Shown piece by piece: positions 663 through 42,425 of a stretch of 64,000 nucleotides of DNA (positions are counted from its first letter, which is position 1; each line of letters begins with the position of its first letter). The position numbers and the translations under genes are program-made. The stretch is taken from positions 614 to 64,613 of the forward strand of contig JBBDJP010000001.1 in assembly GCA_040879805.1 (NCBI GenBank), written 5' to 3'. The notes beneath the pieces were generated by a model, which saw nothing but the letters and a program-made list of their open reading frames with translations, was not told the origin of the DNA and made no database searches. This stretch comes from Candidatus Pacearchaeota archaeon (lineage in GTDB: Archaea > Nanobdellota > Nanobdellia > Pacearchaeales > GW2011-AR1).

Positions 663-1188
663 CCTTCTTCACAAAATCAAAAAAACTTTTCTTCTCAAAA
701 AGTAAAACCTTCTTATCCTTTGGATCAATATTAACTTTAAGTAACCCAAACATTGAAACAAAGATCGTACAAACTAAAAGAGGTCGACCTTTGACATCCT
801 GCAAAGAAACCATAATTTTTTGTAAATCTCCCTTCACTTTATGTTTCTCTATTTCATCCTTAATAAGATCTTCAATATCTTCTAAATCAAAATTAATATC
901 TTCTCTAATTTCTTTTGGTTCCAAAAATTCTTGTTGAATATTTGTTCCAAATTTTCCTTGAGCAGGAATCTTTTTTACCTCGCCATCCAAACTTCCTATC
1001 TCAAAACTAACAACTTCCTTTTTCTTAGGTATGTAAAAATCAATATGTCTTTGATTATCTTTTCCTTGAAAATCTATTGTGAAAAATCCCGAACACAAAA
1101 AAGATTTAGAATTCTCTTTAATAAATTTCTTAAATTCTTCAGAATCTTTAAGCCTTTCAAGATAAAATTGTAAGTTCATTTTAATCAA
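655..1188 (-). CDS. Hypothetical protein (177 aa), downstream partner of the NYN-domain gene
   Basis: Long ORF whose start overlaps the stop of the upstream NYN gene by 8 nt (1181..1188). No family motif recognised. Confidence 0.5.
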   Translation of the reverse strand: MIKMNLQFYLERLKDSEEFKKFIKENSKSFLCSGFFTIDFQGKDNQRHIDFYIPKKKEVVSFEIGSLDGEVKKIPAQGKFGTNIQQEFLEPKEIREDINFDLEDIEDLIKDEIEKHKVKGDLQKIMVSLQDVKGRPLLVCTIFVSMFGLLKVNIDPKDKKVLLFEKKSFFDFVKKVK

Positions 1189-1726
1189 AAAAAGATTTAA
1201 CTGTATTTTTATTTAATTTTGTGAATTTGTCGCATTCCTGTTTCAGATGATATGAAAACTTTGTTTCAAAGCCAATATTTTCAACATTTTTCCCAATTTC
1301 CTTAACTGCCTGGATCGCGGGAACAAAATCACCATCAGAGGAAACCAATAAGGCAGTATCATAAGCATTATTATATGCAAGCTTAACCATATCAACAGCT
1401 AAATGAATATCATCTTCCTTAACTTGATAAATTGTTTTTCCGTCAATTTTAACTTTTTGCATTCTGCAAAGAACAAGGTTAAGTTTTGGTATCCTTTTTA
1501 ATCTATCAAAAAATTTTTGTTGTTTTGCATAAGTCTCTTGATTCTTCTTTCTATCTAAAGGGGCAGTATAATAATAAACTCTAACCAACTTCCTATCTTC
1601 AATAAGATGATTAACAAACTTTTCAAAATTAAAACTAATCAGATTTCTTTTTCCAGAAAACATATCTTTAACAATATGATAATGATTGCTTCCATCAATA
1701 AAAATTGCAATCCTTTCTTGACTCAT
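1181..1726 (-). CDS. NYN-domain (LabA/DUF88-like) predicted ribonuclease
   Basis: N-terminal 'IAIFIDGSNHYH' and distal 'ALLVSSDGDFVPAIQ' match the acidic-residue pattern of PIN-like NYN/LabA domains. Confidence 0.75.
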   Translation of the reverse strand: MSQERIAIFIDGSNHYHIVKDMFSGKRNLISFNFEKFVNHLIEDRKLVRVYYYTAPLDRKKNQETYAKQQKFFDRLKRIPKLNLVLCRMQKVKIDGKTIYQVKEDDIHLAVDMVKLAYNNAYDTALLVSSDGDFVPAIQAVKEIGKNVENIGFETKFSYHLKQECDKFTKLNKNTVKSFFD

Positions 1727-1844: not shown

Positions 1845-3545
1845 CTATATCCTACCCTTAATTTCTTTCTTTAAAGATTTAACAAAATCACTAACTTTCA
1901 TCTTTTCTATTTTTTTATCTCCTCGAGTCCTAACTGCAATCTCTCCCGATTTCTCTTCTTTATCTCCAACAACAATTATATAAGGTACTTTAGAAAGTTC
2001 AGCATCTTTAACCTTAGAAGGAATTGTAGTGCTCCTAAAATCAGCATCAACTCTTAAATTCGGAATTTCTTCTCCAAGTTTCTTTATAACTTCTTTCCCA
2101 TATTTCTCATTCCTGTCTGTGAAACTCAAAACTCGAACCTGTATTGGAGCAATCCATGTTGGAAGACGGCCTTTAGTATGTTCAAGCAAAACACCAATAA
2201 ATCTCTCAAGACTTCCAAAAATTGCCCTATGAATCATCACAGGTATTTTCCTTTTGTTATCTTTGTCTGTGTACTCTAATTCAAATCTCTGAGGCATAGA
2301 AAAATCAAGCTGAATTGTTCCTAACTGCCAGCTTCTTCCTAAAGCATCCTTTATATGAAAATCAATCTTCGGACCATAAAAAGCACCATCACCTTTGTTA
2401 ATTTTATATTTTATTTTATCATTTTTAAGAACTGATTCCAATGCTTTCTCAGCCTTGTCCCACCTCTTATCTCCACCAATCCTTTTTTCAGGACGTGTTG
2501 ATAGTTCAACTTTATATGAAAATCCAAACTTTTTGTAAATTGAATCTGTAAGTTCAATAATATTTCTTATCTCGTCTTCCATCTGCTTCTCTGAACAAAA
2601 AATATGGGCGTCATCTTGAGTGAATTCAACAACTCTAAACAATCCCGCTAAAACTCCTGAAAGTTCTTGCCTATGCACAATTCCAAACTCTGCAACTCTT
2701 AAAGGAAGATCTTTGTATGACTTTGGCTCATTTTTAAAAACTATTAATCCTCCAGGACAATTCATTGGTTTTGATGCAAACTCCCTATCTTCATACTTTG
2801 AAAGAAAAATATTCTCTCTGTATTTTTCCCAATGCCCCGATATCTGCCAAAGTTTTTTATCTAAAATCTCAGGCGTTCTTATTTCTTTATACTCTCTCTT
2901 TCTCAATTCTTCTTTCATAAAATTTACAAGCTCATTATAAACTATTAACCCATTATTATGCCAAAAAGCCATTCCTGGAGCAACATCATTAAAACTAAAC
3001 AAATCCATTTCTTGTCCTAAAATTCTATGATCATAATCTTTTAACTTTGATCTATCAAGAATTGTTTTCCCTATACTTCTAAGCAAATTTACAGTGTCAA
3101 TATTTTCACTATCAGTCTCATCAACCTTTACAACAATCTCTCTGCTTAACTCCGAAAGGGGATGTCCTTTAACTTTTAATTCAAATTCTTTATAATAGCC
3201 AAAAGGCGCTTTTGAAACTTTGAAATCTTTCTTTAGTTTTTTTTCTGCTTCATCTAGAACAGAAACAGCAACATCTGGCTTTGAGAGGTTACTTGACAAA
3301 TGAGCATAAGGATATAAAACAATTTCTTTGGCTTTCACTTGCTTGGCAATATCCTTAACATTATTTATTAACTCTTTAACAGATTCATCCACAGAATCTC
3401 CTTTTTCAACTGCAGTTAAAACAACTAGGCTTTCACCGACTTTCTTCCCTTCCTTTTCTTTTTCAGATAAATCTTCGATGCTCTTCAAAGCCTTCTTCAG
3501 GGGTTTAAAATTAATGTAATCAACGTGTAATGTTAAGAGTTTCAT
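1845..3545 (-). CDS. thrS: Threonyl-tRNA synthetase, archaeal type with N-terminal archaeal editing domain
   Basis: N-terminus 'MKLLTLHVDYINFKP...YPYAHLSSNLSKP...KAPFGYYKEFELKVKGHPLSELSR' is the archaea-specific ThrRS editing domain. It is followed by a class II core ('FRVVEFTQDDAHIF', 'GPKIDFHIKDALGRSWQLGTIQLDF') and an anticodon-binding domain. Confidence 0.95.
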   Translation of the reverse strand: MKLLTLHVDYINFKPLKKALKSIEDLSEKEKEGKKVGESLVVLTAVEKGDSVDESVKELINNVKDIAKQVKAKEIVLYPYAHLSSNLSKPDVAVSVLDEAEKKLKKDFKVSKAPFGYYKEFELKVKGHPLSELSREIVVKVDETDSENIDTVNLLRSIGKTILDRSKLKDYDHRILGQEMDLFSFNDVAPGMAFWHNNGLIVYNELVNFMKEELRKREYKEIRTPEILDKKLWQISGHWEKYRENIFLSKYEDREFASKPMNCPGGLIVFKNEPKSYKDLPLRVAEFGIVHRQELSGVLAGLFRVVEFTQDDAHIFCSEKQMEDEIRNIIELTDSIYKKFGFSYKVELSTRPEKRIGGDKRWDKAEKALESVLKNDKIKYKINKGDGAFYGPKIDFHIKDALGRSWQLGTIQLDFSMPQRFELEYTDKDNKRKIPVMIHRAIFGSLERFIGVLLEHTKGRLPTWIAPIQVRVLSFTDRNEKYGKEVIKKLGEEIPNLRVDADFRSTTIPSKVKDAELSKVPYIIVVGDKEEKSGEIAVRTRGDKKIEKMKVSDFVKSLKKEIKGRI

Positions 3546-3574
3546 ACTTGTAAATAGATTCTTATTTTATAAAT

Positions 3575-4534
3575 TTACTTCTTAGGGAAATGTGTTAATT
3601 TGTAATATTCAATAGCCCTCATACTTTTAATTTCCCTTATTGAAGAAAATTCATTCCTCAATGAGTTAATTATCTTATGATATTCTCCAGTATTCCTTAA
3701 CTCCAAATCAAACTCTATATCATAACCTCCAACATGATACAAAACCGCAGTCATTTCTTTCATTGAATAAATTTTGTTCAAAATCTTCTCCTTCTCTGAA
3801 TAATCTGAAAGATTCACCTTTACTCCATAATAGTCTCTTCCCAGTGCAAGAACATTTATATCTGCTTTATAACCAAGGATAATTCTTTTTTCTTCTAATT
3901 TTTTTATTCTTTGGTGGATAGCCATACTGCTAAAGTTTAACTCTCCTGCAATATCTACAAGCCTCATTCTTGAGTTTTGAGAAATTAATTTTAATATTTT
4001 CAGATCTATTTCATCAACATTAACTTTTTCAAAATTTAGATTTAATTTTTCTCTTGGAACTGGTTTTTTATCTATTAAATAACTCCGATTCCTTTCATCA
4101 TATTTGACTAACTGGGAAATTAGTTTAGTTCCAAGGTATTTTCTAAAAAAACTCATAAATCTTTCATAAAAGTGATAGAATTCACTAACGGATTTTGCAA
4201 AATATCCAAAAGCAAAATCCCATTCTCCCTCATTCTTTCCAATGAGCCAGACTCCTTCTTCCTTCATAAGAAAGGATATTAATTTTTTCAAAGTATTTTC
4301 ATTGATATCTACTAAATTTAACAAAATTCGATTCATAGTAAATCCTAATCTAGAGAAATCAATCACAGTCCTATATCCTGATAAAACTTTCTTTTCCTCA
4401 AGCTTCTTTATTCTGTAACCAACCGCATCTTTACTCAGCCCAACTTTTTTTGCAATTTGAGAGTTTGACTGCCTTGCATTTCTATCTAATTCAAAAAGTA
4501 TCTTTCTATCCTTTAAATCAAATTTCTCCCCCAT
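3575..4534 (-). CDS. Fused tandem Lrp/AsnC-family transcriptional regulator (two HTH plus ligand-domain modules in one chain)
   Basis: Two copies of the Lrp pattern are present. The first is 'LKDRKILFELDRNARQSNSQIAKKVGLSKDAVGYRIKKLEEKKVLSGY'. The second is 'LKILKLISQNSRMRLVDIAGELNFSSMAIHQRIKKLEEKRIILGY'. Each is followed by an alpha/beta module. Confidence 0.8.
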   Translation of the reverse strand: MGEKFDLKDRKILFELDRNARQSNSQIAKKVGLSKDAVGYRIKKLEEKKVLSGYRTVIDFSRLGFTMNRILLNLVDINENTLKKLISFLMKEEGVWLIGKNEGEWDFAFGYFAKSVSEFYHFYERFMSFFRKYLGTKLISQLVKYDERNRSYLIDKKPVPREKLNLNFEKVNVDEIDLKILKLISQNSRMRLVDIAGELNFSSMAIHQRIKKLEEKRIILGYKADINVLALGRDYYGVKVNLSDYSEKEKILNKIYSMKEMTAVLYHVGGYDIEFDLELRNTGEYHKIINSLRNEFSSIREIKSMRAIEYYKLTHFPKK

Positions 4535-4651
4535 AATTAGACATATTAAAGAATATTATATAAATCTTTTTATTTTGTGGTAATTTTAAACCATAAGTTT
4601 CTTATATATCTATTTCTATATATTACTACTTAAACATTAAGACAAGAGAAA

Positions 4652-5002
4652 ATGAAAATTCACAAAAATGATGTAAAATTAATTGGAGATGTCCAGAAAG
4701 GAGACCTATTAACAATAAGTCCAGATGAAGCAACAGAAAAGAGAAGAAACCCAGTGGGCCTTGTATCTAGAGTAAACAAAGATTCGAAGGATATCTTCAT
4801 ATATACAAAACATGAAATTCCAGAAAAGGAAAAAGGAAGATCTTTAGGAGGACTCTTAGAAATTCATTACAAACTGAAAGAAAAAGGTTTGGAAGAAATT
4901 GATTTACAAAGCTTCTTCATTTTCGACCATAGGTATAATAAAATTAGAGGCACGCTTGAAAAAAATAATTTACTTTATCAGACATCTGGGGGTGGAAAAT
5001 GA
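4652..5002 (+). CDS. Hypothetical small protein (116 aa) ending ...QTSGGGK; first gene of a three-gene cassette
   Basis: ORF with ATGA stop/start overlap to the next gene. No family recognised. Confidence 0.5.
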   Translation: MKIHKNDVKLIGDVQKGDLLTISPDEATEKRRNPVGLVSRVNKDSKDIFIYTKHEIPEKEKGRSLGGLLEIHYKLKEKGLEEIDLQSFFIFDHRYNKIRGTLEKNNLLYQTSGGGK

Positions 5003-5619
5003 TAGAAAATAAATTTGACCAACATATCAAAGACAGAAAAACTGAGACTATAAATATAGATCTATCTGAAATTGGAAAAGGTATTAAGGAATTTCTAAAA
5101 CAAACACTCAAAAGCAAGGAAATTGCTAAATTAGCTCCAACTGATAATGGGTGGGGAAGCTACAGAGGTCCCTTGTTTTATGCTTCTAAAAAAGAAATAT
5201 TAAATGAGATTCTTAAAGACAAATCTAACTTCCATAATTTCGGGAAGAAGGGAATTTTATATTCTGGTTACCTATTTGAACCTTTTTCAGGAATACTTCC
5301 AGGAGGGCATAACTGTTCTTATAATAGGGGTGCATTAAAATTTAGATTAGATAAATTTAAAGTTAACAGAGAAGAACATATTTCCGTAAGTGAAGTTGGA
5401 ATCAATTCAGCAAAAATATTCTCTAAAGAAATGAATTCAGATTTAGAAAAAGTTTCAAAAATACTCCAACCCCTGTACATGGTTGATGCGGGAGACACTT
5501 ACAATCCCAAATTGAATAAATTAGAGAGAAATATTGGAAACAAAATAAAAAAAATTGATAAAACTTCTTTAGAAAACTGCCTCGTGAATTATTTTATCAA
5601 TCCTCTTCTAAAAACCTAA
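4999..5619 (+). CDS. Hypothetical protein, paralogue A of the cassette
   Basis: Shares 'M-x-ENKFDQ-x-I', 'PLFY', 'xAGxxYNxxLxKxE' and C-terminal 'INPLxK' with the next ORF. Confidence 0.55.
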   Translation: MIENKFDQHIKDRKTETINIDLSEIGKGIKEFLKQTLKSKEIAKLAPTDNGWGSYRGPLFYASKKEILNEILKDKSNFHNFGKKGILYSGYLFEPFSGILPGGHNCSYNRGALKFRLDKFKVNREEHISVSEVGINSAKIFSKEMNSDLEKVSKILQPLYMVDAGDTYNPKLNKLERNIGNKIKKIDKTSLENCLVNYFINPLLKT

Positions 5620-5625
5620 AAGAAA

Positions 5626-6333
5626 ATGACAGAAAACAAGTTCGATCAATATATAGAAGAAAACGAAGAAAAACTCTTCACATTATCAAATAACGGAAAA
5701 GAAATTAAAGAAATTTTAACAAATGTATCTCAATCAAGATCAATTCCAAAAGTTCTAGACTTTCCTCTGTTTTATGTTATTTCCAAAAAAGACATCACTA
5801 AAGACGAATTGGAAAATCAAGATAAAATACGGCAATCAAATGCTCTTACAATTCCTTCAAATTACGATTCTGGTGGAAATAGGCATAACTTTGAGAATCT
5901 TCTCTACATAGATTACGATGAAAACTATTCAAGAAAGTTAACAGGAAGAGATTTCCACAAACCATTGTTTTTCTTTCATGAAAAAAGTAAAATCAAACTG
6001 AGGATAAAAGTAAATGAATTCAGAGTAGAAAAAGATCCTGAAACAAATATATCAAAAGTAAGTTATAATCTCTCTGAACATACAAACTGGGGATTGCCCT
6101 ATACCCAGTATTCTAAACTAAATAAAACTGACCTATCAAAAGTTGACTTAAATAAAATTTCAGAGATTATAGATTCAGGATATATTATTGGGGCAGGAGT
6201 AAAATACAATCTTAATCTGGAAAAGATTGAATATCAAATTCCTAAGTTTTTTAAAGATTTACAGGACTCAAAAGGTTTAGAAAAAATAATAAAAGAAAGA
6301 TGGATAAATCCTTTAATGAAGTTTGTAAAGTAA
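5626..6333 (+). CDS. Hypothetical protein, paralogue B of the cassette
   Basis: Collinear similarity to 4999..5619, with the same N- and C-terminal motifs. Confidence 0.55.
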   Translation: MTENKFDQYIEENEEKLFTLSNNGKEIKEILTNVSQSRSIPKVLDFPLFYVISKKDITKDELENQDKIRQSNALTIPSNYDSGGNRHNFENLLYIDYDENYSRKLTGRDFHKPLFFFHEKSKIKLRIKVNEFRVEKDPETNISKVSYNLSEHTNWGLPYTQYSKLNKTDLSKVDLNKISEIIDSGYIIGAGVKYNLNLEKIEYQIPKFFKDLQDSKGLEKIIKERWINPLMKFVK

Positions 6334-6345
6334 TCCATCTAAAAA

Positions 6346-7482
6346 TCAATCCCTATAAACAAACTTCCCAACAATCTTTTTAGCCTTTTCCCTATTTTTC
6401 TGGTGCTCTTTAAGAAAGGCATTTATTTTTTCAATCAGATATTCTTTAAGTTCAGAAGTTAACATTTTACCACTCCGATAATCTTCCTCAATTTCCTTTA
6501 ACTTATCATCATTAGGCTCAAAAAACATCCTCAAATACTGGAAAGAAACATCAACATCAGGATTCCCGCCTTTCTTTCTATGTTCTTCAACAGTCTCTCG
6601 TCCTCCTGAAAAAGCATATTTCTTTATCTTTCTCTCAACTTCTTTTGGAGAATCTGTCATTGCAATAAAAGAATTCTCATCACTTGAAGACATCTTACCA
6701 CCACCTTTTAAACTTGGAAGGAAAAAATGATATGTTGAGGAAATTGGAATAAACTTATGGTCTTTATTTCTCTTAGCCATTCCTCTTGCTATTCTTATAT
6801 GAGGGTCCTGATCAACTCCTACCGGAATAAAAGTTGGGATTGGCTTTCCTTCAAATTCAGGAAGCTGAGGATGATACATGTCTGCAGCCTGCAAAAGAGA
6901 AGCATTCATTTTCCCTGGACTTATTTCTCCATAAACACCCTTAAATTCATTAAAAGTTGCATACCTTGAAAAATTTGAAGCAAGCCGATAATAAGAATTT
7001 GATTTCTTTGGTTCATGGGAACGATCACTCTGAAAATAAAATTCAACATTTTTTGGTTTTAATCCTAATGCAATATAATTTACTAAATACTGATCTATAG
7101 CAGTCTTTCTTAATTCTTCAATAGATTTCTGACGTGCATTATAGGCCTCCAAATCTGCAACTGCGATATACAACTTTGCACCTAATTTTTGATAAAAGAT
7201 CATCTGTTGAGCGAGAATCATATGTCCAAGATGAAATTTTCCCGTAGGCATCAAACCAGTCATCATAACAAACTCCTTTTTACTTTCAACGCATTCAAGA
7301 ATTCTTTTAAAATCACGATGTGCAAAAACAATTCCACGTCTAAAAAGAACATTTTCGTTAAAAACTCTAGGCAACTTTGAAATTTTATTTATTCCAAAAT
7401 CTTTCATCAATCTTTTATAATTAATATCTCCTGAAACTTCCCAAGGATCCACTTTTACTCTAGAAATCTTCTCCTTTTTCAT
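6346..7482 (-). CDS. trpS: Tryptophanyl-tRNA synthetase (archaeal/eukaryotic type)
   Basis: Class I motifs 'PTGKFHLGHM' (HIGH-like) and 'KMSSSD' (KMSKS-like). The N-terminal 'VDPWEVSGDINYKRLMKDFGI' and the about 380 aa length are typical of archaeal TrpRS. Confidence 0.85.
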   Translation of the reverse strand: MKKEKISRVKVDPWEVSGDINYKRLMKDFGINKISKLPRVFNENVLFRRGIVFAHRDFKRILECVESKKEFVMMTGLMPTGKFHLGHMILAQQMIFYQKLGAKLYIAVADLEAYNARQKSIEELRKTAIDQYLVNYIALGLKPKNVEFYFQSDRSHEPKKSNSYYRLASNFSRYATFNEFKGVYGEISPGKMNASLLQAADMYHPQLPEFEGKPIPTFIPVGVDQDPHIRIARGMAKRNKDHKFIPISSTYHFFLPSLKGGGKMSSSDENSFIAMTDSPKEVERKIKKYAFSGGRETVEEHRKKGGNPDVDVSFQYLRMFFEPNDDKLKEIEEDYRSGKMLTSELKEYLIEKINAFLKEHQKNREKAKKIVGKFVYRD

Positions 7483-7572: not shown

Positions 7573-9603
7573 ATGAGAAAAATACTATTATCTTTAATAC
7601 TAATCTTAATTATTTTACCTTTTGCATCTGCAGAAATTATAATCAACCAACAGCCAAAAGAAATCTACAATCTTGGAGATGTTCTCTCAATTCCTGTAAC
7701 AATAAAAACTTCTTCTGGAATCTCTGGAAATTTTAATATGGATTTAATCTGTAATGGTATGGAAGAAAATTTTTATAGAAATGGTGTAGATTTGGGTCCT
7801 GGGGAAGAAATTAGATTTCAATCTTCACTAATTTTAACAAAAGGAATTATTGGAGACTTAAAAGGAAACTGTATAATCAAGGCACACATAGAAGACCAAT
7901 CTAAAACAACAAATGAATTTAAAATTTCTAACTTAATTAACCTTAACGTTGAATTTGTAAATACTTCTTTTAAGCCAGGAGATATAATATCTATTGAAGG
8001 AGATGCCATCAAAGAAAATGGAAATTCTGCAGATGGATTTATAGAACTAGGTCTTTTTGAAGGGAACAATTCATTAATTAGTCAATTGGAAACAATCAAT
8101 AATGGTTTTTTTTCTGGATCACTCTCACTATCTGAAGATATGAAAGCAGGAACATTTCTCCTTAAACTAACTGCCTATGAACAAGACACTCAACAAAGAA
8201 GAACAAATGAAGGAACAACAAGTAAAAGCATAGAGATAAATCAAGTTCCTACAAGTGTTGAAATAATTTTTGAATCTAAAAATGTAGATCCAGGATCAAA
8301 CCTAAACGCAGAATCTGTCCTTTATGATCAAACTGGAGAAAAAATAAATGGATCTTCAACAATAACTATCAAAAACTCTAAAGATGAAATTGTAAGTCAA
8401 TTTGAAACAAATAATAATGAAGAATTTAATTATTCAATTCCTAAAAGGGAGCTACCTTCAGATTGGAAAATAATGGTTGAATCTAACGGGCTTGAAAGAG
8501 AATTCATTTTTAGAATTAATGAAAAAGAGAGTATTGATATGGAATTTGTTAATAGAACAATCACAATTGTTAATACTGGAAATATTCCTTACAATAAAAC
8601 CACTTTAGTTAAAATAGGGAATGAAACTCTTAATGTAGATGTATATCTTGAGGTGGGGCAAAGCAAAAGATATTTGATAACTGCGCCTGATGGAGAATAT
8701 AATGTTGAGGTAATTTCTGGAGAAAACATGATTTCTGGAAATGCAGTACTTACTGGAAATGCAATTGAAATAAGGGAGGCTTCTGAAAGAACATGGAGTC
8801 TTGTGAAATCTCCTACTGTATGGATATTCATGATATTAATACTTGGATTCATTACTTTTGTAATTTTCAAAAGAGGATACCAAAGAACATTTGTAGGATA
8901 TATCTCTTCAAGAATGGGCAGAAAAAGAAAACAAAAAAAGGATAAAACAAAAAGGGTTCAGACCTATCAAGAAACTCCTATTTCAAAAGGATCTATTGTA
9001 AAAACAAAAAATCCTGCAGAACTTTCATTGTCTATAAAGGGGAGTAAACAGGAAGCAAGTATAATCAATGTTCACATAAAAAATCTTAAAGAAATCCAAT
9101 CAAAGAAAAATAATGCTGGAGAAACAATACAAAACCTTGTTGAAATAGCAGAAGGAAAAAAGGCATATGTTTATGAAAATTATAGTAACCTATTCTTTAT
9201 ATTAGCCCCTATAAAAACAAAAACTTACAAAAATGAAAAGAGTGTTTTAGACATTTCTAAAAAATTCATAGAAATTCTTGAAAAACATAACAAACTATTC
9301 AAACAAAAAATTGATTATGGGCTTTCATTAACTCATGGAACAATAATAGCTAAAGAAGAAGGAAGCTATCTTAAATTTATGAGCCTTGGTAAACTAATGT
9401 CAACATCCAAAAAGATTGCCTCAATCTCAGAAGGAAAAATTCTCCTTGATGAATTTATGAATGAAAAACTAAGATCACACTTAAAAACAGAAAAACATGA
9501 AAAGAACAAAATTAATTTCTATTCGATAAAAGAAATGAAAAACCCTAAAGAACATGAAAAATTTATTAGAGGCTTTCTGGAAAGAATGAACAAAGATGAT
9601 TAA
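7573..9603 (+). CDS. Type I membrane protein with signal peptide, large N-glycosylation-sequon-rich ectodomain, one TM helix and a cytoplasmic domain resembling a degenerate class III nucleotide cyclase fold
   Basis: The N-terminal 'ILLSLILILIILPFASA' is a signal peptide. A TM helix 'VWIFMILILGFITFVIF' is followed by a basic stretch. See the findings for the C-terminal domain. Confidence 0.65.
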   Translation: MRKILLSLILILIILPFASAEIIINQQPKEIYNLGDVLSIPVTIKTSSGISGNFNMDLICNGMEENFYRNGVDLGPGEEIRFQSSLILTKGIIGDLKGNCIIKAHIEDQSKTTNEFKISNLINLNVEFVNTSFKPGDIISIEGDAIKENGNSADGFIELGLFEGNNSLISQLETINNGFFSGSLSLSEDMKAGTFLLKLTAYEQDTQQRRTNEGTTSKSIEINQVPTSVEIIFESKNVDPGSNLNAESVLYDQTGEKINGSSTITIKNSKDEIVSQFETNNNEEFNYSIPKRELPSDWKIMVESNGLEREFIFRINEKESIDMEFVNRTITIVNTGNIPYNKTTLVKIGNETLNVDVYLEVGQSKRYLITAPDGEYNVEVISGENMISGNAVLTGNAIEIREASERTWSLVKSPTVWIFMILILGFITFVIFKRGYQRTFVGYISSRMGRKRKQKKDKTKRVQTYQETPISKGSIVKTKNPAELSLSIKGSKQEASIINVHIKNLKEIQSKKNNAGETIQNLVEIAEGKKAYVYENYSNLFFILAPIKTKTYKNEKSVLDISKKFIEILEKHNKLFKQKIDYGLSLTHGTIIAKEEGSYLKFMSLGKLMSTSKKIASISEGKILLDEFMNEKLRSHLKTEKHEKNKINFYSIKEMKNPKEHEKFIRGFLERMNKDD

Positions 9604-41537: not shown

Positions 41538-42425
41538 ATGGATTTAGAGAAAATTTGCAAAAATATCGAAGAAAGATTATGTAAAGAAAATTTTGAAACT
41601 CTTTCTGCAATGGCACTTGTAGGGTCAAGAGTAAATGGATATTTTGATAAAAACAGCGATTATGATTTCTCAGCAATATTTAAAGATGAAATTGAAGAAA
41701 GGCATATTAATTTTAATATGGATGGAACACCCATCTCTGTAAAAGTAGAAAGTGAAAAAATGTTTGAAGATTATCTTAAATTTTCTGGAGATAATGGTGA
41801 AAAATCAAAATTTGTTTACCTTCCATATCTAGCAATAAAAAACAAGGATTATTTTTTTCATAAAGAAAAGATTTCTAGAAAAATATTACTTGATGAATTT
41901 GTAGAAATATTACCTCAAAATAAAAACATTAAAACAAATATAGATAATTTGATAGAATTTCCTTTAATAAGACGTTCAATCTTTTCTCCAGATTATTGGC
42001 CAAGAATAAGAAGATTGGTGGAATCTGGATCTAATTTCAAAGAAAAGATGAAGCCAAAATATATTGAATCGTTAAAAGAGATTGGATATTTTATCTCAAA
42101 TAAGGGCGAAGTTGTTTTCAAAAATGAAAATACTGAAAAAATACTGAAAATAAATTTGCCAAAATATATTAAACAAAAATATCAATTTGCCAAAAAATTT
42201 GGTGTTAGAAATAAAGACTATTTTTATGGTGGATTATGCATGGCAATCCATCTATCTATGGCATACAATAATGAAAAATTTCCTATAATTGAAAAAAGGA
42301 GGGGTGAATTTTACTACGCAGGACCTACATTGAATCAACTTTTAGATAAAAGAAAAAGTTTTGTCATTCTTGAGAATTTTTCTAAAAAATTAAAAGACAA
42401 AATAGTCAAAAACTCATGTCCATAA
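41538..42425 (+). CDS. Pol-beta-superfamily nucleotidyltransferase domain protein
   Basis: 'ALVGSRVNGYFDKNSDYDFSAIF' matches the GS-x(n)-D-x-D NTase signature. The C-terminal roughly 200 aa are unassigned. Confidence 0.55.
   Translation: MDLEKICKNIEERLCKENFETLSAMALVGSRVNGYFDKNSDYDFSAIFKDEIEERHINFNMDGTPISVKVESEKMFEDYLKFSGDNGEKSKFVYLPYLAIKNKDYFFHKEKISRKILLDEFVEILPQNKNIKTNIDNLIEFPLIRRSIFSPDYWPRIRRLVESGSNFKEKMKPKYIESLKEIGYFISNKGEVVFKNENTEKILKINLPKYIKQKYQFAKKFGVRNKDYFYGGLCMAIHLSMAYNNEKFPIIEKRRGEFYYAGPTLNQLLDKRKSFVILENFSKKLKDKIVKNSCP

What the first reader, a model, noticed from the sequence alone, without database searches (positions are those of the whole stretch)
4535..6333. Three-gene cassette of unrecognisable proteins with tandem paralogues, divergent from a double-Lrp regulator
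The cassette is 4652..5002 (116 aa), 4999..5619 (206 aa) and 5626..6333 (235 aa), tightly linked with an ATGA overlap and then a 6-nt gap. The second and third proteins are clear paralogues. Both begin M-x-ENKFDQ-x-I, and both share 'PLFY', an 'xAGxxYNxxLxKxE' block and a C-terminal 'INPL(L/M)K'. I cannot tie either to any family. The first protein ends in '...QTSGGGK'. A Gly-Gly(-Gly) followed by one residue resembles unprocessed ubiquitin-like small modifiers, but that link is pure speculation. The cassette is transcribed divergently from a fused tandem Lrp/AsnC regulator across a 117-bp intergenic region with A/T boxes on both sides. This makes it the best candidate in the window for a regulated accessory module of unknown function.
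Basis: partly seen in the sequence, partly recalled or inferred. Interest (0 to 1): 0.65.

Follow-up and report, generated by a model that had tools for sequence, protein, structure and literature searches.

The report
New protein family beside tandem-Lrp regulator
A DPANN (Woesearchaeota-type) archaeon carries a small three-gene operon, including two copies of a previously undescribed protein family, next to a highly conserved double-Lrp regulator whose neighbouring slot holds different enzyme cassettes in related genomes; the operon's function is still unknown, and the ubiquitin-like idea for its first gene is not supported.

Summary
All three ORFs, the ATGA overlap, the 6-nt gap, the 117-bp intergenic region, the ORF2/ORF3 paralogy (BLASTP E=3e-15) and the fused double Lrp/AsnC regulator are as described.

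ORF2 and ORF3 belong to a tiny unnamed family ("NKFD family"). An exhaustive search of 1.84 billion representatives found seven true relatives. There is no Pfam, NCBIfam, PHROG, PADLOC or PDB-sequence match. The AlphaFold model (pLDDT 71) has no fold match.

Synteny is real for the regulator–NKFD pair but not for the trio. Four independent loci pair a 72–80%-identical regulator with a 29–41%-identical NKFD gene across a strongly conserved ~100-bp bidirectional promoter.

In sister lineages the same slot, sometimes with the same flanks, holds a cyclodipeptide synthase plus methyltransferase. In more distant lineages it holds radical-SAM enzymes, an aminotransferase, methyltransferases or orphan ORFs.

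ORF1 has no clear homologue. Its GGGK tail is shared only with one other overlapping upstream ORF, and in both it coincides with a Shine-Dalgarno-like run at −11 to −6 of the NKFD start. That fits translational coupling better than a ubiquitin-like tail.

Best reading: a lineage-specific, Lrp-controlled accessory operon of unknown biochemistry.

The parts
3575..4534 (-). Fused tandem Lrp/AsnC-type regulator ('Lrp2', 319 aa): two wHTH modules and at least one RAM-like ligand domain.
   Evidence: Pfam HTH_AsnC-type and HTH_24 match twice each, and AsnC_trans_reg matches residues 239-308 at 24.3 bits against a cut-off of 25. NCBIfam AsnC, LrpA and LysM models match both halves. Orthologues are 72-80% identical in L001, L002 and L006, and 71% in L008, which is as conserved as ThrRS (70%) and W/Y-RS (66%).
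4535..4651 (.). 117-bp bidirectional control region. It contains a TATA-like box for the regulator (about 4556-4565, read on the minus strand), a conserved core ATCTTTTTATTTTGTGGTAA (4564-4583), and a TATA-like box for the cassette, GTTTCTTATATAT (about 4598-4610), followed by a partial tandem copy TTTCTATATAT (about 4613-4623).
   Evidence: An alignment of 10 loci with different cargo gives 29 invariant and 20 nearly invariant columns and 71% mean column identity. The TATA and operator assignments are inferred from sequence and position only.
4652..5002 (+). ORF1: 116 aa, soluble, basic, orphan protein ending in GGGK.
   Evidence: Only a self-hit in the indexed protein search. No family match. 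Weak alpha-crystallin hits only, E about 0.1. Coding-like codon usage. Possible remote relative L005:545-982, Smith-Waterman z=2.8, empirical p about 0.013.
4988..5002 (+). Shine-Dalgarno-like run GGGGGTGG (4988-4995) and the ATGA stop/start overlap (4999-5002) that couples ORF1 to ORF2.
   Evidence: This is the only match of 6 nt or more to the SD consensus among 67 gene starts in the window; the background rate for an 8-nt match is 4 in 5000. L005 has GGAGGA in the same register, -11 to -6, before its NKFD gene.
4999..5619 (+). ORF2: 206 aa, the canonical member of the new 'NKFD' family.
   Evidence: 29-35% identical to P0004, P0005, P0006, P0010 and P0011. Family alignment A2. AlphaFold2 model with pLDDT 70.9 and pTM 0.71. 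No fold match in the PDB or BFVD.
5626..6333 (+). ORF3: 235 aa, a divergent tandem paralogue of ORF2 with insertions. It lacks the family's conserved Cys.
   Evidence: BLASTP against ORF2 gives E=3e-15. The family HMM scores it at 163.6 bits, against 227.4 for ORF2. Its best hit outside the window is only E about 3e-5, to P0004.
1845..3545 (-). Left flank (context only): threonyl-tRNA synthetase with the archaeal editing domain.
   Evidence: Pfam tRNA-Thr_ED, tRNA-synt_2b and HGTP_anticodon. The same flank occurs in L008 and L017.
6346..7482 (-). Right flank (context only): class-I Trp/Tyr-type aminoacyl-tRNA synthetase, convergent with ORF3 and 12 nt away.
   Evidence: Pfam tRNA-synt_1b. The same flank occurs in L008 and L007.

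Best explanation
ORF1-ORF2-ORF3 is a lineage-specific accessory operon. It sits in the cargo slot of a conserved unit made of a fused tandem Lrp/AsnC regulator plus a roughly 100-bp bidirectional promoter. Inferred mechanism, step 1: the regulator senses an amino acid or related metabolite through its RAM-type domain, binds the conserved core between the two TATA-like boxes, autoregulates, and controls the divergent promoter. Step 2: the three genes are made from one short-leader mRNA. ORF2 translation is coupled to ORF1 through the ATGA overlap and an embedded Shine-Dalgarno-like run, and that run also accounts for ORF1's GGGK tail. Step 3: ORF2 and ORF3 are soluble, basic alpha/beta proteins of a new, very narrowly distributed family with no recognisable fold relatives, and they may act as a hetero-pair. 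Their biochemical role is not shown. Related genomes carry a cyclodipeptide synthase plus methyltransferase, radical-SAM enzymes, an aminotransferase or methyltransferases in the same slot. By that analogy, the most likely role is some amino-acid-derived small-molecule or modification chemistry that is switched with nutrient state. Shown here: gene structure, paralogy, family membership, conserved regulator-cargo adjacency, the conserved promoter, and cargo variability. Inferred: regulation, ligand sensing, co-transcription, translational coupling and the biochemical role.
For: Anatomy and paralogy. Family: the exhaustive HMMER search found 7 true relatives (alignment). Adjacency: the regulator-NKFD pairing occurs in L001, L002 (with duplicates L003, L004 and L016) and L006 as well as the window. 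The four NKFD-linked regulators form one clade. Control region: it is conserved across 10 loci whatever the cargo. Generality: a divergent neighbour at about 95-120 bp is present in most of the 56 tandem-Lrp loci examined (48 have one within 400 bp). Variable cargo: L008 has identical flanks (ThrRS, regulator, slot, W/Y-RS, surface protein), but the slot holds a CDPS plus a SAM methyltransferase. More distant loci carry B12-binding radical-SAM enzymes, other radical-SAM enzymes, Aminotran_3, methyltransferases or a SET-domain protein. Coupling: the SD-like run sits in the same register in the window and L005, and L058 shows an unrelated GG tail over GGAGGGGTATGA. Background: archaeal Lrp regulators commonly sit next to their targets, often divergently, and usually autoregulate (PMC2995911).
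Against: There are no expression data; only DNA runs from sediment metagenomes hold the locus. No binding site has been demonstrated, and the palindromic arms in the conserved core are trivial in a 70% A+T genome. This genome otherwise hardly uses SD motifs, so the function of the SD-like run is uncertain. L007's overlapping upstream ORF has no such run. The family has few invariant polar residues: 5 invariant columns, namely G, Y, L, E and P. That is not strongly enzyme-like. The analogy with other cargo types is guilt by association across non-homologous genes. In L005 an NKFD gene sits behind a different (HTH_10) regulator, with no tandem Lrp seen on the 2.5-kb contig.
Confidence: 0.5

Rival explanations
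1. The NKFD proteins are not enzymes. They are fast-evolving binding or antagonist proteins involved in conflict or in host-symbiont interaction (defence, anti-defence, or modulation of a partner cell), and they sit in a hypervariable islet.
For: Distribution is very narrow. L007 comes from the same sample and shares a 91%-identical W/Y-RS C-terminus, but its NKFD gene is only 29% identical to ORF2 and has no BLAST hit to ORF3 at E<=0.1. This genome has a tandem duplication with an asymmetrically diverged copy. The slot content differs between close relatives; L008 and L019 have 92%-identical regulators but different cargo. Few polar residues are invariant.
Against: No PADLOC hit for the window proteins, and only two single-member weak hits (E about 0.004-0.006) across the family. 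No PHROG hit. No occurrence on viral contigs or in phage records. No signal peptide or transmembrane segment. No flanking repeats or mobility genes. At the same phylogenetic distance, other non-core proteins are also only 40-45% identical, so the divergence rate is high but not unique.
Confidence: 0.2
2. ORF1 is a small carrier, precursor or modifier protein whose conserved C-terminal GGGK is functional at the protein level (processed, conjugated or modified), and the NKFD proteins are the enzymes that act on it.
For: Of 5,511 open frames in all fetched loci, only ORF1 and L005:545-982 end in GGGK, and both overlap the start of an NKFD gene by ATGA. The two ORFs show weak colinear similarity (z=2.8, or 2.2 without the tail). 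Alternative cargo in this slot includes enzymes typical of peptide and amino-acid modification, such as radical-SAM enzymes and a CDPS.
Against: L001, L002 and L006 have an NKFD gene directly behind the promoter with no upstream ORF. L007's upstream ORF ends in KRKW. ORF1 has no Ubl, ThiS, MoaD or Urm1 profile hit. The window has no E1 or JAMM motif. The Gly codons form an SD-like run in the same register in both loci, which explains the tail without any protein-level function.
Confidence: 0.1
3. The adjacency is not regulatory. The tandem Lrp is a core, possibly global, regulator, and the conserved intergenic sequence reflects only its own promoter and autoregulation. Whatever lands next to it is expressed from a generic divergent promoter without a specific functional link.
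For: The regulator is as conserved as the aminoacyl-tRNA synthetases, while its neighbours are unrelated across lineages. The regulator's sequence stays nearly the same while the cargo changes (92% identity between L008 and L019). In L005 an NKFD gene occurs without a tandem Lrp on the contig.
Against: The second TATA-like box that drives the cargo (GTTTCTTATATAT) is itself conserved in 9 of 10 aligned loci, and the cargo start follows it at a fixed short distance. The regulator and NKFD gene stay together when the genomic context changes: ThrRS and W/Y-RS flanks in the window, TGT and a class-II synthetase in L006, and different neighbours in L001 and L002. The cargo is enriched for enzymes of amino-acid and SAM chemistry, which fits Lrp-type ligands.
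Confidence: 0.15

Closest known systems
Archaeal Lrp-type local regulators transcribed next to or divergently from their targets (e.g. BarR, LysM, Ss-LrpB; reviewed in PMC2995911, see also PMC10201364)
   Same: An HTH_AsnC-type DNA-binding module plus a RAM-type ligand domain. The regulator is encoded adjacent to and divergent from a target operon with a shared control region, and autoregulation is likely.
   Different: Here two complete Lrp modules are fused into one 319-aa chain. All solved relatives are single modules of about 150 aa. The cargo is not a recognisable amino-acid metabolism gene, and it is exchanged between lineages while the regulator and promoter stay constant. No binding or ligand data exist.
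Cyclodipeptide synthase plus tailoring-enzyme clusters
   Same: In L008, L017, L042 and L055 the same regulator and promoter drive a CDPS (E=8e-21 to solved CDPSs). In L008 a SAM methyltransferase follows it. This is a two-gene specialised-metabolism cassette of similar size and layout. L055 even has a small ORF followed by the CDPS with a 4-nt overlap.
   Different: The NKFD family shows no sequence or profile similarity to CDPS (hhalign probability 0.2%; Pfam). The link is positional analogy only.
Ubiquitin-like small modifiers and sulfur carriers (SAMPs, Urm1, ThiS/MoaD)
   Same: A small protein with Gly-Gly close to the C-terminus, encoded directly upstream of genes of unknown function.
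   Different: No profile match, no E1 or JAMM partner in the window, and no conservation of ORF1. The tail is GGGK, and it overlaps an SD-like run and the next gene's start codon. The fold was not tested.
Fused Lrp-like proteins of siroheme decarboxylase (AhbA/AhbB, NirDL)
   Same: Two Lrp/AsnC-like modules act together, and in NirDL they are fused. NCBIfam AhbA and AhbB and Pfam NirdL-like_HTH give weak hits.
   Different: Those hits are far weaker (E=2e-6 to 3e-3) than the hits to genuine regulators such as AsnC, LrpA and LysM (E=1e-20 to 1e-23). No haem-pathway genes are nearby. A regulator is the better reading.

Membership tests
Lrp/AsnC (FFRP) transcription regulators (gene 3575-4534) | N-terminal AsnC-type winged helix-turn-helix | tested here: met
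   PF13404 E=8.1e-26 and PF13412 E=3.3e-26, two stretches each (residues about 6-49 and about 177-219).
Lrp/AsnC (FFRP) transcription regulators (gene 3575-4534) | C-terminal RAM (AsnC_trans_reg) ligand-binding domain | tested here: inconclusive
   PF01037 matches only the second module, at 24.3 bits against a gathering score of 25. The NCBIfam AsnC model aligns across residues 169-306. The first module's C-terminal half has no domain call.
Lrp/AsnC (FFRP) transcription regulators (gene 3575-4534) | Single-module subunit of about 150 aa that assembles into dimers or octamers | tested here: not met
   The protein is a 319-aa fusion of two modules. All 13 PDB sequence relatives are chains of 141-178 aa that match only one half.
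Lrp-type local regulator with a divergent target operon | Regulator-target adjacency conserved across genomes | tested here: met
   The regulator-NKFD pairing occurs in the window, L001, L002 and L006 despite different outer flanks. A divergent neighbour at about 100 bp is present in most tandem-Lrp loci.
Lrp-type local regulator with a divergent target operon | Conserved shared control region or operator | tested here: met
   In the 10-locus alignment, 49 of about 100 columns are invariant or nearly so, including both TATA-like boxes and the core between them.
Lrp-type local regulator with a divergent target operon | Demonstrated binding and ligand-dependent regulation of the target | not testable with these tools
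   No RNA runs hold the locus. Biochemistry is needed.
Ubiquitin-like modifiers / sulfur carriers (ORF1) | Beta-grasp fold | not tested
Ubiquitin-like modifiers / sulfur carriers (ORF1) | Sequence or profile match to ubiquitin, Urm1, ThiS or MoaD families | tested here: not met
   No such hit in Pfam or NCBIfam at E<=1. The PDB sequence search gives only alpha-crystallin hits at E about 0.1.
Ubiquitin-like modifiers / sulfur carriers (ORF1) | Functional C-terminal Gly-Gly | tested here: inconclusive
   The GGGK tail is present and is shared with L005:545-982. However, the codons form an SD-like run at -11 to -6 of the overlapping downstream start in both loci.
Ubiquitin-like modifiers / sulfur carriers (ORF1) | E1-like activating enzyme and/or JAMM protease encoded nearby | tested here: not met
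   No H[ST]Hx7SxxD or GxGGxG motif in any of the 96 window ORFs of 80 aa or more. This is a motif-level test limited to 64 kb.
Cyclodipeptide synthases (ORF2/ORF3) | Profile similarity to the CDPS fold family | tested here: not met
   hhalign of A2 against the CDPS-like alignment A4 gives probability 0.2%. No member of the family has a Pfam CDPS hit.
Known anti-phage defence or phage protein families (ORF1-3) | Match to PADLOC or PHROG models, or presence on viral contigs | tested here: not met
   Only two weak single-member PADLOC hits appear across the family (E=0.004-0.006).
'NKFD' family (defined here from alignment A2) | About 190-aa soluble protein with an N-terminal NKFD motif, PxFY, a G(G/A)xxY(D/N) hairpin and a C-terminal LExC(L/I)xxYxIxP helix | tested here: met
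   ORF2 has all the motifs and scores 227 bits. ORF3 scores 164 bits, keeps the invariant G, Y, L, E and P, lacks the Cys and carries insertions.

The most novel reading that the evidence does not exclude
The tandem-Lrp gene and its invariant bidirectional promoter form a conserved 'expression socket' in Woesearchaeota and other Nanoarchaeota. Small biosynthetic cassettes are exchanged in this socket: CDPS plus methyltransferase, radical-SAM enzymes, or the NKFD genes. On this reading the NKFD proteins are enzymes of a new fold that act together with the GGGK-tailed ORF1 as carrier or precursor, which would be a new route to an amino-acid- or peptide-derived metabolite in a genome-reduced symbiont.
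Probability: 0.12. Interest if true: 0.75.

Novelty: new variant of a known kind. Interest (0 to 1): 0.5.

Why it matters
DPANN archaea have tiny genomes full of unannotated genes, and almost nothing is known about how they regulate accessory functions. This locus links an orphan protein family to a specific, very conserved regulator and promoter. In sister lineages the same regulator and promoter drive recognisable specialised-metabolism genes, including a cyclodipeptide synthase and radical-SAM enzymes. That provides a concrete experimental handle: one regulator, one 117-bp control region, and swappable cargo. It can be used to study nutrient-responsive accessory functions in uncultivated symbiotic archaea, and it gives a short list of candidates for new chemistry or a new fold. 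If the proteins turn out to be ordinary lineage-specific orphans, the lasting result is the conserved tandem-Lrp and promoter unit with its variable cargo.

Tried and rejected
1. The word-indexed protein searches with ORF3, ORF1 and the family alignment returned essentially only self-hits plus P0007 and P0010. Only the exhaustive profile search found relatives. P0008 from that search is a repeat-protein false positive.
2. AlphaFold2 on ORF3 with a 2-sequence alignment failed (pLDDT 30). The 9-sequence alignment gave a usable ORF2 model.
3. Foldseek against the PDB and BFVD found nothing significant. The best hits were E=0.67 (TM<=0.2) and AFV1 ORF150 at E=0.06 (TM about 0.27). Low-ranking nucleic-acid-binding and GNAT hits were not interpreted.
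4. PDB sequence searches with profiles A1 and A2 gave 0 hits.
5. A hidden CDPS homology for the NKFD family was rejected.
6. A defence, phage or mobile-element origin was rejected: no PADLOC or PHROG match, no viral contigs, no phage tblastn hit, and no flanking direct or inverted repeats beyond chance.
7. The scan of GTDB genomes with NKFD patterns found no relative. The metagenome scan with A2 failed for lack of a conserved stretch. The regulator was used as the handle instead, and that recovered no new NKFD genes.
8. ORF1 shows no BLAST similarity to the small upstream ORFs of L007 or L055.
9. A second copy of the operator-like core elsewhere in the window: one 2-mismatch match lies inside a gene at 41910-41929 and is not significant.
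10. The window has no regulator paralogues.
11. The 260-aa ORF downstream of the NKFD gene in L002 is not an ORF3 equivalent (no BLAST, HMM or Pfam signal).
Full report
**1. The observation**

There is an ATGA overlap and then a 6-nt gap, and the cassette is divergent from a 319-aa gene at 3575-4534 across 117 bp. That gene has two AsnC-type HTH modules and a borderline RAM domain, so 'fused tandem Lrp/AsnC' is correct.

ORF2 and ORF3 are real paralogues. BLASTP gives E=3e-15 and 29% identity over the full length, and all quoted motifs are present. All three ORFs have in-frame, host-like codon usage and are far longer than chance allows at 30% GC. All three are hydrophilic and basic, with no hydrophobic segment. 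The flanks are a threonyl-tRNA synthetase and a class-I Trp/Tyr-type synthetase.

**2. What ORF2 and ORF3 are**

They match nothing in Pfam, NCBIfam, PHROGs or PADLOC, and nothing among PDB sequences, whether searched singly or as a profile. The word-indexed search found only the proteins themselves.

The exhaustive HMMER search of 1.84 billion cluster representatives, using a profile of the two paralogues, found ten hits. Seven are true relatives of about 190 aa (P0004-P0007 and P0009-P0011), and one is a repeat-protein false positive.

The family shares these motifs:
- an N-terminal NKFD motif
- a PxFY motif
- a G-G/A-x-x-Y-D/N hairpin
- a C-terminal LExCLxxYxIxP helix

I call it the NKFD family for convenience. 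Public sources give no member a name, and each member is a singleton cluster. ORF2 is the canonical copy (227 bits to the family HMM). ORF3 is the diverged copy (164 bits), with insertions and without the conserved Cys.

With two sequences AlphaFold2 failed (pLDDT 30). With nine it produced a model of ORF2 with pLDDT 70.9 and pTM 0.71, and the C-terminal 60 residues are at about 90. The model has an N-terminal helical segment followed by a six-stranded alpha/beta domain. Foldseek found no significant neighbour in the PDB (best E=0.67, TM<=0.2) or among viral models (best E=0.06, TM about 0.27). The family therefore remains unplaced by both sequence and structure.

**3. Synteny**

Look-ups of the relatives' contigs showed that P0010 (L001), P0004 (L002, with duplicates L003, L004 and L016) and P0006 (L006) each lie divergent from a tandem-Lrp gene of about 320 aa. 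Those regulators are 72-80% identical to the window's, while the adjacent NKFD genes are only 29-41% identical.

The outer flanks differ. L006 has TGT and a class-II synthetase, and L001 and L002 have other genes. The regulator and the NKFD gene therefore travel together. The four NKFD-linked regulators form one clade in a distance tree.

The trio is not conserved. In L001, L002 and L006 the NKFD gene follows the promoter directly with no ORF1, and none of them has a second paralogue.

**4. A conserved regulator and promoter with variable cargo**

L008 (Woesearchaeota) has the same arrangement as the window: ThrRS, the regulator, a slot, the W/Y synthetase, then a surface-type protein of about 670 aa. 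Protein identities to the window are 70%, 71%, 66% and 45% respectively. Its slot holds a 233-aa cyclodipeptide synthase and a SAM methyltransferase instead. The CDPS scores just above the Pfam gathering threshold, and its profile reaches E=8e-21 over the full length against solved CDPSs.

L017, L042 and L055 repeat the CDPS arrangement. L019 has a 92%-identical regulator but an unrelated 87-aa neighbour.

Of the 56 tandem-Lrp loci examined, 48 have a divergently transcribed gene within 400 bp, and in most of these the gap is about 95-120 bp. Clustering and Pfam show these neighbours to be:
- B12-binding radical-SAM enzymes
- other radical-SAM enzymes
- a class-III aminotransferase
- SAM methyltransferases
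- a SET-domain protein
- CDPS
- the NKFD family
- a repeat protein
- many orphan ORFs

The intergenic region is strongly conserved in ten loci whatever the cargo. It contains a TATA-like box about 26 nt from the regulator's start, an invariant core (ATCTTTTTATTTTGTGGTAA, window 4564-4583), and a second TATA-like box (GTTTCTTATATAT) that faces the cargo. In L001, L002 and L006 the NKFD start codon lies roughly 20-30 nt after that box, which suggests leaderless or near-leaderless mRNAs. In the window the box is partly duplicated, and ORF1 intervenes between it and the NKFD genes.

The literature on archaeal Lrp regulators supports local, often divergent, target control and autoregulation (PMC2995911). 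Every solved relative is a single-module protein.

**5. ORF1 and the GGGK tail**

ORF1 has no homologue in the indexed search, no family hit, and only alpha-crystallin hits at noise level. It shows no BLAST similarity to the small ORFs that overlap NKFD or CDPS genes in L005, L007 and L055.

A shuffle-calibrated local alignment does give a weak, colinear signal with the 145-aa ORF of L005: z=2.8 (p about 0.013), or z=2.2 without the tail.

Those two ORFs are the only ones among 5,511 open frames in all fetched DNA that end in GGGK. Both overlap the downstream NKFD start by ATGA.

At the DNA level the Gly codons read GGGGGT (window) and GGAGGA (L005), at positions -11 to -6 of the NKFD start codon. 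This is a Shine-Dalgarno-like run in the same register in both loci. In the window it is the only strong SD-like match among 67 gene starts. An unrelated gene pair in L058 shows the same coincidence of a GG tail, GGAGGGG and an overlapping ATG.

The simplest reading is that the tail is a by-product of a translational-coupling signal. The caveat is that this genome otherwise hardly uses SD motifs, so a protein-level role for the tail cannot be excluded.

The window has no JAMM or E1 motif.

**6. Population context**

Only sediment-metagenome DNA runs hold the locus, so there is no expression evidence. Laying contigs from the source sample on the region shows two further arrangements:
- A co-occurring relative at about 80% nucleotide identity is colinear with ThrRS, the W/Y synthetase and the surface-protein gene. 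It has only 279 nt where the window has 3,080 nt. That is just enough for the ThrRS N-terminus, so the regulator-plus-cargo block appears to be absent from that site.
- L007, from the same run, shares a 91%-identical synthetase C-terminus. It carries a different small ORF plus a 29%-identical NKFD gene abutting the synthetase.

The cassette boundaries have no repeats, and the family is absent from viral contigs and phage records.

**7. Interpretation**

What is shown:
- a new, narrowly distributed protein family, duplicated in tandem here
- a conserved pairing of that family with a highly conserved fused tandem-Lrp gene and its bidirectional promoter
- exchange of the cargo in that slot between lineages, with a strong representation of enzymes of amino-acid and SAM chemistry

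What is inferred:
- the regulator senses a metabolite and controls the divergent promoter
- ORF1-3 form one transcript
- ORF2 translation is coupled to ORF1
- by analogy with the alternative cargo, the NKFD proteins carry out or assist some accessory small-molecule chemistry

The rival readings, with my confidence in each, are:
- a fast-evolving conflict or interaction protein (0.2)
- ORF1 as a functional GGGK-tailed carrier or precursor (0.1)
- mere co-location beside a core regulator (0.15)

None is excluded.

**8. Verdict**

The 'regulated accessory module' reading is supported and sharpened. The conserved trio and the ubiquitin-like speculation are not supported.

This is a new variant of a known kind: an Lrp-type regulator with a divergent target. 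The new aspects are the fused tandem regulator, the swappable cargo, and a cargo family without known relatives. Interest is moderate, at 0.5. Orphan families are common in DPANN genomes, but the conserved regulator-and-promoter unit with CDPS, radical-SAM or NKFD cargo is a useful and testable organising feature.

Noticed in passing
L008:5179-5880 (-) and L008:4467-5177 (-); also L017:3-224, L042:29-730, L055:1-450: A cyclodipeptide synthase occupies the same regulator-linked slot in sister Woesearchaeota, followed in L008 by a SAM methyltransferase. Its profile reaches E=8e-21 over the full length against solved CDPSs. In the printed alignment the Ser of the solved enzyme's ISLGN motif is a Cys (ICLKN), while YIL(D/E)E is kept. 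From my own knowledge, that Ser is the catalytic nucleophile. No paper in the library links CDPS to DPANN.
   Followed up: partly
window 3275-6356, contig 'record 2' of run X1: A co-occurring relative at about 80% nucleotide identity and depth 37 joins ThrRS to the W/Y synthetase with only 279 nt in between. The 2.8-kb regulator-plus-cargo block therefore seems absent from that site, which suggests the block is inserted or relocated as a unit. I could not retrieve the contig sequence.
   Followed up: partly
L007 (1431 nt; the same contig as record 4 of run X1): This is a third arrangement in the same sample: a partial ORF of at least 64 aa, a 92-aa ORF, a 200-aa NKFD gene, then a W/Y synthetase C-terminus 91% identical to the window's. 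The NKFD gene is only 29% identical to ORF2 and has no BLAST hit to ORF3 at E<=0.1.
   Followed up: partly
L013, L023, L030-L032, L034, L039, L040, L043, L046, L047, L049, L037, L048, L059, L056 (divergent neighbours of tandem-Lrp genes): Across more distant Nanoarchaeota-type contigs, the tandem-Lrp gene is typically divergent from one of these: a B12-binding radical-SAM enzyme, another radical-SAM enzyme, a class-III aminotransferase, a SAM methyltransferase or a SET-domain gene. The gap is about 100 bp.
   Followed up: partly
window, all gene starts: The genome is essentially free of SD motifs. Match lengths upstream of 67 gene starts look like background, which fits leaderless or SD-independent initiation. 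The ORF2 start is the single exception. Start codons were taken naively, so some starts may be wrong.
   Followed up: partly
window 4598-4623: The cargo-side TATA-like box is partly duplicated in tandem in this genome only (TTTCTTATATAT, CTA, TTTCTATATAT), just upstream of the lineage-specific ORF1.
   Followed up: no
window 41910-41929 (-): A 2-mismatch copy of the 20-nt conserved core (ATGTTTTTATTTTGAGGTAA) lies inside the ORF at 41538-42425. It is probably chance: 0.11 matches are expected, and 1 of 100 shuffles gave two or more.
   Followed up: no
L018:1245-2309 (-) and L020:1-783 (-): Two tandem-Lrp loci carry a related cargo protein built from repeats of about 35 aa (...TG[IV]xPxxxxxL[VI]Qxx Y...). 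It has no annotation.
   Followed up: no
L058:7075-7929 (-): A 284-aa ORF ends in ...VYGGV over GGAGGGGTATGA, with an overlapping downstream ATG. This is an independent case of a Gly-Gly tail that coincides with an SD-like run.
   Followed up: no
L062 (698 nt): The contig that carries the truncated family member P0009 looks chimeric. Its 5' part is GC-rich and unrelated, and it joins onto the AT-rich C-terminal half of an NKFD gene.
   Followed up: no
L005:1-492 (+) and L005:1598-2443 (+): Here an NKFD gene and its GGGK-tailed upstream ORF lie behind an HTH_10 (Bat-type) regulator gene and in front of an MMR_HSR1/FeoB_N-type GTPase gene. No tandem Lrp is present on the 2.5-kb contig.
   Followed up: no
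window 7573-9603 (+) and 1181-1726 (-): The 676-aa protein next to the W/Y synthetase has a hydrophobic N-terminus and a sub-threshold MG2-domain hit. It is 45% identical to its L008 counterpart, so it is probably a surface protein. The 181-aa gene left of ThrRS is an NYN-domain protein.
   Followed up: no
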